Positions 1-48,789 of a DNA stretch of 64,000 nt are shown here, piece by piece. The notes below the pieces were generated by a model. The model searched no databases. It worked only from the letters and a program-made list of their open reading frames with translations, and was not told the origin of the DNA. The position numbers and the translations under genes are program-made. The stretch lies in NCBI RefSeq assembly GCF_056746865.1, contig NZ_CM163382.1, one strand, 5' to 3'. The number at the start of each line of letters is the position of its first letter. Position 1 is the stretch's first letter.

Positions 1-797
1 ATGAGGCGCTTAACCGCGAACTCAATCTTACCTGGCAAAATACGCGGCCCGATCATAATCCGATTGTCGCCGGTAACTGGCCGCCAAAAGCCGATGAAGT
101 GTCAATGGAAGAGGGGCTGGCGAAACGCTTAAACGTTGCCCTCGGCGATACCGTGACTTTTATGGGCGATACCCAGGAGTTCCGCGCTAAAGTGACCAGC
201 CTGCGCAAAGTGGACTGGGAAAGTCTGCGGCCTAATTTCTATTTTATTTTCCCTGAAGGGGCATTAGACGGACAACCGCAGAGTTGGCTTACCAGTTTCC
301 GCTGGGAGAATGGCAACGGCATGTTGACGCAACTCAACCGCCAGTTCCCTACCATTAGCCTGTTAGACATTGGCGCGATTTTAAAACAGGTCGGTCAGGT
401 GCTGGAGCAGGTAAGTCGGGCGCTGGAAGTGATGGTGGTGCTGGTCACCGCCTGCGGTATGTTGCTGTTGCTGGCACAGGTGCAGGTGGGAATGCGTCAG
501 CGTCATCAGGAGCTGGTGGTGTGGCGCACACTCGGTGCGGGCAAAAAACTGCTGCGCACGACATTGTGGTGTGAGTTCGCCATGCTCGGGTTTGTATCCG
601 GCCTGGTGGCCGCAATTGGTGCGGAAACGGCACTGGCGGTACTGCAATCGAAAGTGTTTGATTTCCCGTGGGAGCCAGACTGGCGATTGTGGATTGTTCT
701 GCCGTGCAGCGGTGCGCTGCTGCTGTCGCTTTGCGGCGGCTGGCTGGGTGCGCGACTGGTTAAGGGTAAGGCGCTATTCAGGCAGTTTGTGGGATGA
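1..797 (+). CDS. ybbP: ABC-transporter permease, C-terminal fragment (5' end lies upstream of window)
   Basis: Frame is open from position 3 with no stop; hydrophobic permease-like C-terminus; synteny upstream of selU. Confidence 0.75.
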   Translation, partial: EALNRELNLTWQNTRPDHNPIVAGNWPPKADEVSMEEGLAKRLNVALGDTVTFMGDTQEFRAKVTSLRKVDWESLRPNFYFIFPEGALDGQPQSWLTSFRWENGNGMLTQLNRQFPTISLLDIGAILKQVGQVLEQVSRALEVMVVLVTACGMLLLLAQVQVGMRQRHQELVVWRTLGAGKKLLRTTLWCEFAMLGFVSGLVAAIGAETALAVLQSKVFDFPWEPDWRLWIVLPCSGALLLSLCGGWLGARLVKGKALFRQFVG

Positions 798-804
798 TGA
801 CAGG

Positions 805-915
805 CGTTAGATTGCCTGATGCGCTACGCTTATCAGGCCTACGAGGATCGTGCAATATATTGATTTTGCAAGATTGTGTAGGCCGGATAAGGCGTTTACG
901 CCGCATCTGGCATGA
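805..915. repeat. REP/BIME-like palindromic units
   Basis: gcctgatgcgctacgcttatcaggcctac ... gtaggccggataaggcgtttacgccgcatc, typical REP consensus. Confidence 0.7.
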
Positions 916-1315
916 ACAGTGTGCATTTTGGCAATAAATATGAAACCAACTGTCATGTCGGTTTTTTTAAAGGCCGAAGGTGGTAAACCTTCGGCCTTAG
1001 CTACGTTTCCTCAGTTATTCAATAAACTGACGGATCAGTTCCAGCAGCGCGATTAGCGCCTTAAGAACGATGAGAACTGCCTCTCTCCAAATTAGAGCAC
1101 CAGAATCAGCACCACCTGTATCCTGACCAGGACTTAAAAGTACTTTTCCGCACTGCGGTAATCCCTTGAGGCAGTATCACTACTAGCGTCGGGATTGTAT
1201 CGCCAACATAGCTGTTTGAATATGTAGGCATCCTGACTTATAATTCATTTGCTAGATGAGGACTGTTTCATTTCTGCCCGGAACCACCAAGTCTTGGGCG
1301 GAAAAAATAAAAAAA

Positions 1316-1339
1316 CCGACTGTCATGTCGGTTTTTTTA
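1316..1339. terminator. Bidirectional rho-independent terminator (ccgac-tgtcat-gtcgg hairpin flanked by A- and T-tracts)
   Basis: Perfect stem with A-tract upstream and T-tract downstream; lies just downstream of the selU stop on the minus strand; a near copy occurs at 946-967. Confidence 0.6.
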
Positions 1340-1401
1340 TATCTGTATTCTGGTGCAACCATTCTGTTCTCACGACAATCGCCGTTTCAGAATACCGCCC
1401 A

Positions 1402-2511
<1,110 letters not shown>

Positions 2512-14347: not shown

Positions 14348-14433
14348 TTACCTGAATTTACCGCAAAAAAAGCCACGGTATAAACCGTGGCAAAATCCAA
14401 CATAGCTAAAAATAATCAGGCGAGTGGTATGAC

Positions 14434-35834: not shown

Positions 35835-35911
35835 GCGCCCTTAGCTCAGTTGGATAGAGCAACGACCTTCTAAGTCGTGGGCCGCAGGTTCGAATCCTGC
35901 AGGGCGCGCCA
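35835..35911 (+). tRNA. argU: tRNA-Arg (anticodon TCT, reads AGA/AGG)
   Basis: 77-nt cloverleaf GCGCCCTTAGCTCAGTTGGATAGAGC...TCTAA...GGTTCGAATCCTGCAGGGCGCGCCA. Confidence 0.95.
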
Positions 35912-48467: not shown

Positions 48468-48789
48468 TTGTAACTGTTGTAGCAGCTATGGATGTGATCA
48501 TCATGGTGTCCATTTACTGGGGTTGACGACATGATTTATCCGGCGCTATATTCTGTGCGTTGCCGCAAAATCGGCACACGGGATTGGCGTCCCGGGATAC
48601 TACTCAACGCATACCGCGTTAAGCGGTTTTTTTGTGCGCTAAGCACGGCTATGCCCAAATTATGGTGGGCTGTGTGAGGGCTTCTTCGGAAGCGCCGGGT
48701 TTGAGTAGCCGGTTACGCCAACCTTACACAGTTCACCACCAGTCGATTGGCGTCGTTGGTGGTGATGGTTAACCTGATGAGGTGATACT

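What the first reader, a model, noticed from the sequence alone, without database searches (positions are those of the whole stretch)
798..1401. ybbP-selU intergenic region lacks the Rhs element; duplicated terminator hairpin
In E. coli K-12, as I recall, the rhsD element lies between ybbP and selU (ybbB). Here only ~600 bp separate them, containing REP units and two copies of a ccgac/ccaac-tgtcatg-tcgg hairpin with T-tract (946-967 and 1316-1339). This is consistent with an unoccupied Rhs insertion site. The ~350 bp between the hairpins has no long ORF and could encode a small RNA or be a scar.
Basis: partly seen in the sequence, partly recalled or inferred. Interest (0 to 1): 0.3.

Follow-up and report, generated by a model that had tools for sequence, protein, structure and literature searches.

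The report
Decayed DinQ-like toxin–antitoxin module
The 600 bp between ybbP and selU/mnmH is not an empty Rhs site: it holds a known kind of small toxin/antisense-RNA cassette (DinQ-like toxin plus AgrB-like RNA) whose toxin gene has lost its start through a 108-bp deletion, so it is an ordinary, already annotated feature.

Summary
The interval is 604 bp (798-1401), has no Rhs element, contains a REP pair, and carries two copies of a 40-nt repeat holding a terminator hairpin (930-969 and 1300-1339). K-12 does carry rhsD at this position.

The segment between the hairpins is not anonymous. It is a dinQ/agrB-family (dql) type I toxin-antitoxin module, window 925-1388.
- An AgrB-like antisense sRNA gene lies at 1252-1340(+). 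It scores 53.6 bits against Rfam RF02891 (threshold 40) and has its own promoter. The right hairpin is its terminator.
- On the other strand lies the remnant of a 27-aa DinQ-like toxin gene (1015-1092). The left hairpin follows the toxin mRNA's 3' stem-loop.
- Compared with the intact allele (MKTFLDKVLIVLKALIALLELIRQFIE), this window lacks 108 bp. The deletion lies between the imperfect repeats GATGAGAACT and GATGAGGACT and removes the start codon, the Shine-Dalgarno sequence and part of the 5' UTR.

Among 5426 complete E. coli genomes, about 1325 have the module at this site (1136 intact there, about 140-175 with this deletion). About 2902 have the K-12-type Rhs junction, and at least 457 have REP-only sites.

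RefSeq already annotates the ORF as dinQ, and the dql family was published in 2016. Interest is low.

The parts
1..797 (+). 3' end of ybbP (ABC transporter permease); left flank
   Evidence: ORF; RefSeq annotation of the 100% identical stretch in strain 118UI
818..913 (.). REP pair (BIME-type): two inverted REP units, present also in module-free alleles
   Evidence: Inverted repeat I2 at 829-842/878-891; Rfam ES036 at 835-877 and naRNA4 at 881-917; about 30 places per genome; the same REP pair in empty-site strains L005/L006
925..1388 (.). Whole dql/agrB module. It is an insert relative to empty-site alleles, lying between GTGCA and CAGAAT with no target-site duplication; 464 bp here, 572 bp when intact
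   Evidence: Comparison with L006/L007 empty sites; colinear alignment to the intact allele and to K-12 dinQ-agrA
943..964 (.). Left hairpin, a copy of the agr terminator (repeat 930-969). It is the last hairpin of the toxin transcript on the - strand and could also stop ybbP read-through on the + strand
   Evidence: It is absent from plasmid dql modules and from the K-12 dinQ locus
970..998 (-). 12-bp GC-rich 3' stem-loop of the toxin mRNA, homologous to the hairpin downstream of K-12 dinQ and of plasmid dqlB, with compensatory changes
   Evidence: Inverted repeat I5; alignment columns 45-75; folds; plasmid loci
1015..1092 (-). Remnant of the DinQ-like toxin ORF. The last 20 codons and stop are authentic (VLIVLKALIALLELIRQFIE*); upstream there is no in-frame ATG, GTG or TTG and no Shine-Dalgarno sequence. 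RefSeq calls a 25-aa 'dinQ' from an ATT codon
   Evidence: NCBIfam NF041472 34.4 bits; intact 27-aa allele in L002
1069..1078 (.). Junction of the 108-bp deletion: the surviving hybrid copy of the GATGAGAACT / GATGAGGACT microhomology
1069..1150 (-). Surviving part of the toxin 5' UTR. It is a degenerate copy of the agr sequence read antisense; the AgrB-like pairing site is at about 1069-1091
   Evidence: Alignment to K-12; duplex predictions; repeat seen
1194..1220 (-). Putative toxin promoter: -10 TACAAT (complement of 1194-1199) and -35 TTCAAA (complement of 1215-1220), 15-nt spacer. Inferred, not mapped
   Evidence: Read from the sequence. The position matches the K-12 dinQ promoter region. 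No LexA box
1216..1244 (+). Promoter of the AgrB-like sRNA (TTGAAT-17-TATAAT). Its -35 overlaps the divergent toxin promoter's -35
1252..1340 (+). AgrB-like antisense sRNA gene (antitoxin): single-stranded 5' pairing region, central hairpin and terminator hairpin (1307-1340)
   Evidence: Rfam RF02891 53.6 bits against gathering score 40; fold z = -4.9 with the same architecture as K-12 AgrB
1402..2496 (-). mnmH (selU/ybbB), tRNA 2-selenouridine synthase; right flank, convergent with ybbP

Best explanation
Window 925-1388 is a chromosomal member of the DinQ/AgrB (dql) family of type I toxin-antitoxin modules. It sits between the convergent genes ybbP and mnmH, at the locus where K-12 carries the rhsD island.

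How the intact allele is expected to work:
- The - strand gives a roughly 350-nt mRNA for a 27-aa hydrophobic membrane peptide (MKTFLDKVLIVLKALIALLELIRQFIE).
- Its long 5' UTR hides the Shine-Dalgarno sequence in a CUCCC-UUAA-GGGAG hairpin.
- A divergently transcribed 89-nt AgrB-like sRNA pairs through its 5' end with the UTR and blocks or destroys the message. The UTR is itself an antisense copy of the agr sequence.

The right one ends the sRNA and, being bidirectional, also shields the toxin gene from mnmH read-through. The left one follows the toxin mRNA's 3' stem-loop and faces ybbP.

In this window a 108-bp deletion between two imperfect 10-nt repeats has removed the first 7 codons, the start codon, the Shine-Dalgarno sequence and about 85 nt of 5' UTR. 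One repeat lies in the ORF and the other in the sRNA-pairing site. The toxin can almost certainly no longer be made, while the sRNA gene and both promoters remain. What is left is a decayed toxin-antitoxin locus with an orphan antitoxin RNA.

Shown here: homology, architecture, the deletion and the allele frequencies. Inferred: transcription start sites, toxicity of the peptide, repression by the sRNA and non-translation of the remnant.
For: sRNA and toxin homology:
- Rfam AgrB hit at 1252-1340(+), 53.6 bits against a threshold of 40. Its fold has the same three-part architecture as K-12 AgrB.
- RefSeq annotates a dinQ CDS at 1015-1092(-) in the 100%-identical stretch of strain 118UI.
- NCBIfam toxin_DinQ scores 40.9 bits for the intact peptide and 34.4 for the remnant, against a cut-off of 30.
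- The module aligns colinearly with K-12 dinQ-agrA: 3' hairpin, ORF, UTR and agr.

The deletion:
- The intact allele in SCU-105 has an ATG start and an AAGGGAG Shine-Dalgarno sequence.
- The window lacks exactly 108 bp between GATGAGAACT and GATGAGGACT.
- No in-frame ATG, GTG or TTG is left.

Pairing and folding:
- The sRNA 5' end is complementary to the UTR: 14 nt identical in sense, extended by G.U pairs. The full duplex is -73.7 kcal/mol, against shuffles of -44.8 +/- 4.3.
- The predicted fold of the intact mRNA has the Shine-Dalgarno sequence in a hairpin and the 5' end paired to the sRNA target. This is the regulatory scheme described for dinQ and dql (PMC5066626).

Relatives and experiments in the literature:
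- IncX1 and IncX3 plasmid dql modules have the same layout, each with one AgrB hit.
- Toxicity and base-pairing-dependent rescue are shown experimentally for K-12 DinQ/AgrB (PMC3567139) and for pOXA-48 DqlB/agrB (PMC12365149).

Population counts in 5426 complete E. coli genomes:
- 1325 genomes carry the module, always as one copy. 1311 show it contiguous with ybbP and mnmH.
- 1136 are intact over the deleted segment.
- 139 share the exact junction seen in the window.
Against: - There is no expression data for this locus, and the transcript ends are inferred.
- RefSeq keeps a 25-aa CDS starting at ATT, so residual translation cannot be formally excluded.
- No LexA box is present; the best match is 11 of 20, against 15 of 20 in K-12. 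The RefSeq name 'damage-inducible' is therefore not supported for this copy.
- The toxin promoter has a poor 15-nt spacer.
- The pairing region is shorter and richer in wobble pairs than in K-12 AgrB-dinQ.
- The toxicity of this particular 27-aa peptide has never been tested, as far as the held literature shows.
Confidence: 0.88

Rival explanations
1. One reading: the interval is a vacant Rhs attachment site, consisting of REP units, a duplicated terminator and an anonymous spacer that is a scar or an unknown sRNA.
For: There is no Rhs here, while K-12 has rhsD at this position. About 2902 of 5426 genomes carry the K-12-type ybbP-Rhs junction. REP units are present.
Against: Truly empty alleles are much shorter and lack the 464/572-bp segment. 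The segment is homologous end to end to dinQ-agr loci and passes the curated thresholds of Rfam AgrB and NCBIfam DinQ. Nothing in the interval is shared with the K-12 Rhs flanks, so no attachment site can be defined.
Confidence: 0.05
2. The toxin-antitoxin module is still functional in this strain. The 25-aa peptide annotated by RefSeq (IWREAVLIVLKALIALLELIRQFIE) would be translated from the ATT codon and kept in check by the AgrB-like sRNA.
For: RefSeq CDS call. The remnant still scores 34.4 bits against the DinQ model and keeps the transmembrane core. The promoter and most of the sRNA target survive.
Against: There is no ATG, GTG or TTG in frame and no Shine-Dalgarno sequence before the ATT. 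The deletion removed the conserved Shine-Dalgarno hairpin and start that all intact family members share. A second, independent decay allele (a 184-bp deletion of both promoters, in F2_81) shows the locus is dispensable and prone to loss.
Confidence: 0.06
3. The hairpins are simply the intrinsic terminators of the convergent genes ybbP and mnmH, duplicated by chance or by gene conversion, and the sequence between them has no function.
For: Both hairpins are followed by T-runs facing the flanking genes, and the right one is a perfect bidirectional terminator.
Against: Strains without the module have neither hairpin, so the hairpins arrive with the module. The right hairpin is positions 55-84 of the Rfam AgrB model. 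The non-coding module diverges by 0.4-1.4% between strains, less than the flanking coding genes at 1.0-6.0%.
Confidence: 0.03

Closest known systems
dinQ-agrAB locus of E. coli K-12 (arsR-gor intergenic region; Weel-Sneve et al. 2013, PMC3567139; Kristiansen et al. 2016, PMC5066626)
   Same: - 27-aa single-transmembrane peptide with the shared core ...IVL.ALIALLELIR...
- The same order of parts: 3' hairpin, ORF, Shine-Dalgarno hairpin, a long 5' UTR containing an antisense copy of agr, and a divergent agr sRNA with a central hairpin and a terminator.
- The DNA aligns over the whole module.
   Different: - Different chromosomal site: ybbP-mnmH instead of arsR-gor.
- One agr gene instead of two.
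- No LexA box.
- Different N-terminus (MKTFLDK against MIDKA) and C-terminus (RQFIE against RFLLQLLN).
- An extra copy of the agr terminator downstream of the toxin gene.
- In this window the toxin start is deleted.
dql (dinQ-like) genes of Enterobacteriaceae chromosomes and plasmids, e.g. DqlB/agrB of pOXA-48 and of IncX plasmids (PMC5066626; PMC12365149)
   Same: - Single agrB-like antitoxin and no LexA box.
- C-terminus LELIRQFI(D/E).
- A homologous GC-rich 3' hairpin (AAAGGCCGgAGG...).
- The same UTR/agr repeat logic.
   Different: - DqlB is 31 aa, with a 4-residue insertion. The peptide here scores below the DqlB cut-off (24.5 against 35) and above the DinQ cut-off.
- DNA identity is only about 67-78% over part of the module.
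- It is chromosomal, and the pairing sequences differ, so cross-talk with these plasmid copies is unlikely.
Other divergently encoded type I systems with trans-acting antitoxins (tisB/istR-1, zorO/orzO, shoB/ohsC)
   Same: The sRNA is encoded 5' of the toxin gene and does not overlap it. It pairs with a long, structured 5' UTR that needs processing before translation (T1TAdb description).
   Different: No sequence relationship was detected here. Rfam OrzO-P scored only 24 bits against a threshold of 60.

Membership tests
DinQ/Dql-AgrB type I toxin-antitoxin family | Small (about 27-31 aa) hydrophobic single-transmembrane peptide with the DinQ signature | tested here: met
   NCBIfam NF041472 toxin_DinQ: intact allele 40.9 bits and window remnant 34.4 bits, against a cut-off of 30. 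RefSeq names it dinQ. Pfam has no model for it.
DinQ/Dql-AgrB type I toxin-antitoxin family | AgrB-type sRNA gene, divergent from the toxin gene, encoded 5' of it and not overlapping it | tested here: met
   Rfam RF02891 at 1252-1340(+), 53.6 bits against gathering score 40. Promoter at 1216-1244. The fold resembles K-12 AgrB.
DinQ/Dql-AgrB type I toxin-antitoxin family | Complementarity between the sRNA 5' region and the toxin mRNA 5' UTR | tested here: met
   CTAGATGAGGACTG is repeated in the UTR and at the sRNA 5' end of the intact allele, and about 20 nt of it remain in the window. The duplex energy is well beyond that of shuffles.
DinQ/Dql-AgrB type I toxin-antitoxin family | Translatable toxin ORF: a start codon with a Shine-Dalgarno sequence held in a regulatory hairpin | tested here: not met
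   Met in the intact allele (L002: AAGGGAG-N6-ATG). In the window both were removed by the 108-bp deletion, and no ATG, GTG or TTG remains in frame. The window therefore holds a defective member.
DinQ/Dql-AgrB type I toxin-antitoxin family | Toxicity of the peptide and rescue by the sRNA through base pairing | not testable with these tools
   Shown only for relatives: K-12 DinQ/AgrB (PMC3567139) and pOXA-48 DqlB/agrB (PMC12365149).
dinQ proper (SOS regulon gene) | LexA box in the promoter (K-12: TACTGTATGATTATCCAGTT) | tested here: not met
   There is no CTG-N10-CAG in 798-1401. The best 20-mer matches the consensus at 11 of 20 positions, against 15 of 20 for K-12.
Rhs element / rhsD locus | Rhs core ORF and associated genes between ybbP and selU | tested here: not met
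   K-12 has rhsD-ybbC-ylbH-ybbD-ylbI-ylbG there. The window has 604 bp with no similarity to the K-12 island flanks.
REP/BIME extragenic repeats | Inverted pair of about 35-nt imperfect palindromes, dispersed in many copies per genome | tested here: met
   Inverted repeat at 829-842/878-891. Rfam REP-derived families hit here. The median is 30 places per genome.

The most novel reading that the evidence does not exclude
After the toxin was lost, the AgrB-like sRNA, still with an intact promoter and terminator, may be retained because it has acquired another job. One candidate is damping the canonical dinQ mRNA: 21 of 23 positions can pair if G.U pairs are allowed. More generally, the internal antisense repeats that make this family work may also act as built-in deletion hotspots that repeatedly disarm the toxin. 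Two independent repeat-mediated deletions were seen, one of 108 bp and one of about 184 bp.
Probability: 0.1. Interest if true: 0.4.

Novelty: already known. Interest (0 to 1): 0.15.

Why it matters
The practical value is corrective. The locus is a known type I toxin-antitoxin cassette, not a blank Rhs site.

Three modest points may interest specialists:
- The ybbP-mnmH junction is a multi-allelic hotspot, with an Rhs island in about 53% of genomes, the dql module in about 24%, and REP-only or other alleles in the rest.
- This chromosomal copy lacks a LexA box, so the RefSeq name 'damage-inducible' is probably a misnomer.
- The RefSeq CDS in strains with the 108-bp deletion (a 25-aa product from an ATT start) is most likely a pseudogene, while the sRNA partner is not annotated at all.

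The repeat-mediated decay alleles are a neat natural example of how type I modules are lost.

Tried and rejected
- Pfam scan of the peptides: no family.
- LexA box search, both exact CTG-N10-CAG and consensus scoring: nothing convincing. SOS control is therefore rejected for this copy.
- Cross-talk of the orphan sRNA with canonical dinQ. The predicted duplex is -57.8 kcal/mol, weaker than AgrA-dinQ at -71.5. AgrA is reported not to regulate dinQ, so cross-talk is considered unlikely.
- Anti-addiction against plasmid dqlB. The pairing sequences of IncX1 and IncX3 modules are unrelated to this sRNA's 5' end, so this is rejected for those plasmids.
- Genome-contig scan with a 28-nt pattern shared by dinQ and this copy. 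It gave only 6 loci. The module was found at the same site in Escherichia sp. E1V33, and canonical dinQ was found in E. whittamii and others. An exact pattern is too strict to settle whether the module was inserted or lost.
- A 60-nt junction query intended to count only deletion alleles. It also joined the two halves in intact strains, so the counts were taken from the identity bands and instead.
- Literature on this specific locus. The supplement of Kristiansen 2016, which lists the 14 dql genes, is not held. Searches for rhsD+ybbP and for dqlA gave nothing relevant. I therefore could not confirm whether this exact locus is among the published dql genes or is of the 'dqlA' type.
- Target-site duplication or mobile-element signatures at the module borders: none found.

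Full report
**Observation.**
The window starts inside ybbP, which ends at 797 on the + strand. mnmH (selU/ybbB) occupies 1402-2496 on the - strand, followed by allS and allA. The intergenic interval is 604 bp.

They lie inside a 40-nt direct repeat, 930-969 and 1300-1339, 83% identical, with a 27-nt core that differs at one base. The right copy is a perfect 14-bp stem between an A-run and a T-run, so it is a bidirectional terminator. The left copy has an A.C mismatch on the + strand that becomes a G.U pair on the - strand.

A REP pair lies at about 818-913 and recurs about 30 times per E. coli genome. K-12 MG1655 has rhsD-ybbC-ylbH-ybbD-ylbI-ylbG between ybbP and selU. The observation and the recalled K-12 gene order are therefore both confirmed.

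**What the sequence between the hairpins is.**
- Rfam finds an AgrB family member at 1252-1340 on the + strand. It scores 53.6 bits against a gathering score of 40 (and again in the whole-window scan).
- A sigma-70-type promoter, TTGAAT-17-TATAAT, ends 7 nt upstream of it.
- The RNA folds like K-12 AgrB: a loosely structured 5' end, a central hairpin and the terminator (z = -4.9). The right 'duplicated hairpin' is therefore the terminator of this sRNA.
- In strain 118UI, which is 100% identical over window 600-1700, RefSeq annotates a 'dinQ' CDS at window 1015-1092 on the - strand.
- Most other strains carry 108 bp more. There they have an intact 27-codon ORF, MKTFLDKVLIVLKALIALLELIRQFIE, preceded by AAGGGAG.
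- That peptide passes NCBIfam's DinQ model with 40.9 bits against a cut-off of 30. The window's remnant scores 34.4 bits.
- The whole segment aligns colinearly with the K-12 dinQ-agrA region: GC-rich 3' hairpin, ORF, 5' UTR, then agr.
- As in K-12, the toxin's 5' UTR contains a degenerate copy of the agr sequence in antisense orientation. This provides the pairing site for the sRNA's 5' end.
- IncX1 and IncX3 plasmid dql modules have the same layout, each with one AgrB hit.

**The defect in this window.**
The window lacks exactly 108 bp relative to the intact allele. The deletion lies between GATGAGAACT, which spans ORF codons 8-11 read on the opposite strand, and GATGAGGACT, which lies in the sRNA-pairing site of the UTR. 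One hybrid copy is left at 1069-1078.

The deletion removed codons 1-7, the start codon, the Shine-Dalgarno hairpin and about 85 nt of UTR. No ATG, GTG or TTG remains in frame. RefSeq's 25-aa product depends on an ATT codon with no Shine-Dalgarno sequence before it. I therefore regard the toxin gene as dead. The sRNA gene, both divergent promoters and most of the pairing site survive.

**Mechanism.**
The mechanism is inferred from the family. For K-12, the +1 dinQ transcript is translationally inert and 5' processing opens the Shine-Dalgarno sequence. AgrB pairing re-closes it and triggers RNase III cleavage, and DinQ is a toxic inner-membrane peptide (PMC3567139, PMC5066626). For pOXA-48, DqlB toxicity and base-pairing-dependent rescue by agrB were shown with compensatory mutations (PMC12365149).

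The intact allele at this locus is predicted to fold in the same way. Its Shine-Dalgarno sequence sits in a CUCCC/GGGAG hairpin, and its 5' end pairs with the sRNA target. The two hairpins insulate the module from the convergent ybbP and mnmH transcripts. That last point is my inference.

Unlike K-12 dinQ, this copy has no LexA box. SOS control is therefore not expected.

**Site and population.**
Empty alleles exist: 58 bp in UPEC129, and one or two REP pairs in MS15236, Nissle 1917 and ECE313. They read ...GTGCACAGAAT..., whereas the window reads ...GTGCA[464 bp]CAGAAT..., with no target-site duplication.

The counts among 5426 complete E. coli genomes are:

| Allele at the ybbP-mnmH junction | Genomes |
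|---|---|
| dql module present, always one copy | 1325 |
| Module contiguous with ybbP and mnmH | 1311 |
| Intact across the deleted segment | 1136 |
| Junction identical to the window's | 139 |
| Lacking the 108-bp segment (all variants) | up to about 175 |
| Second deletion, about 184 bp, F2_81 type | about 14 |
| K-12-type ybbP-Rhs junction | 2902 |
| REP-only site | at least 457 |

The F2_81-type deletion lies between the two CTAGATGAGGACTG repeats and removes both promoters.

The K-12 island replaces everything from the ybbP stop codon to the last codon of selU, and it shares nothing with this interval.

The module differs by only 0.4-1.4% between strains whose flanking ybbP and mnmH differ by 1-6%. 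This suggests constraint or recent spread, and I did not resolve which. A species-level scan found the module at the same site only in Escherichia sp. E1V33. The exact-match pattern was too strict to say more.

**Comparison with what is known.**
The dql family, found on chromosomes and plasmids of Enterobacteriaceae, was defined in 2016. T1TAdb handles DinQ/AgrB loci. RefSeq names this very ORF, and the intact peptide is a MULTISPECIES RefSeq protein seen on at least 1000 contigs.

I could not verify whether this exact locus is among the 14 published dql genes, because the supplement is not held. No held paper discusses the ybbP-mnmH site.

The peptide is DinQ-like in length and DqlB-like at its C-terminus. 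It passes the DinQ model but not the DqlB model.

**Verdict.**
But the site is occupied by a known kind of type I toxin-antitoxin module, here with a decapitated toxin gene. This is an already known feature of low interest.

Three small corrections follow for annotation:
- The remnant is a probable pseudogene.
- The sRNA is not annotated.
- The name 'damage-inducible' is not supported.

Noticed in passing
L020 (E. coli F2_81, NZ_CP043542.1) 1470-1779: A second decay allele of the same module. A deletion of about 184 bp between the two CTAGATGAGGACTG repeats (the UTR pairing site and the sRNA 5' end) removes both divergent promoters and leaves the 27-aa ORF intact. About 14 genomes appear to have it.
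   Followed up: partly
L017 (E. coli RM9088) 1916-2071 and the agrB-like 5' end: RefSeq calls a 51-aa 'dinQ' with a long N-terminal extension here. This allele also has a 1-nt insertion in the sRNA pairing region (GATGAAGGACTG).
   Followed up: no
window 925-1388 versus flanks 1-797 and 1402-2496: The non-coding module differs by 0.4-1.4% between strains, while flanking ybbP differs by 1.0-3.8% and mnmH by 1.6-6.0%. Two strains with the 108-bp deletion (the window and Z226-7) differ by 3.8% in ybbP, so the deletion allele sits on diverged backgrounds.
   Followed up: partly
window 1402-1410 versus L003 11133-11141: mnmH ends ...WVKAQ* here but ...WVKAR* in K-12. The divergence associated with the K-12 Rhs island therefore starts inside the last codon of selU.
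   Followed up: no
window 35835-64000: A tRNA-Arg gene at 35835-35911 is followed by a lambdoid prophage that runs to the end of the window. It carries intD, exo/bet/gam, an S24 repressor, replication O/P-like genes, rusA, quuD, an ompC-like porin, lysis genes, terminase, portal and capsid. Rfam isrK hits at 48561-48633 and C4 antisense RNA at 48658-48743.
   Followed up: no
window 14361-14427: Rfam STnc480 sRNA hit (84.9 bits against a threshold of 72) between glxK and allE in the allantoin gene cluster.
   Followed up: no
window 1-64000 versus NZ_CP032515.1 610927-674926: Window 600-1700 is 100% identical to strain 118UI. A straight position-by-position comparison of the full 64 kb gives 1247 differing positions, so the window does not come from exactly that genome, or it has an indel further on.
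   Followed up: no
PLSDB record CP061270.1 789022-789593: A 1.2-Mb record filed as an E. coli 'plasmid' carries the intact module at 99.7% identity. It is probably a chromosomal fragment or a chromid-sized misassignment.
   Followed up: no
L008 (IncX1 plasmid pM172-1.4) 754-837 and 1101-1188: This plasmid encodes a nearly canonical DinQ (MIDKAIIVLGALISLLELIRYLLQLMG) with a single AgrB-like gene. K-12-type DinQ peptides are therefore also plasmid-borne.
   Followed up: no
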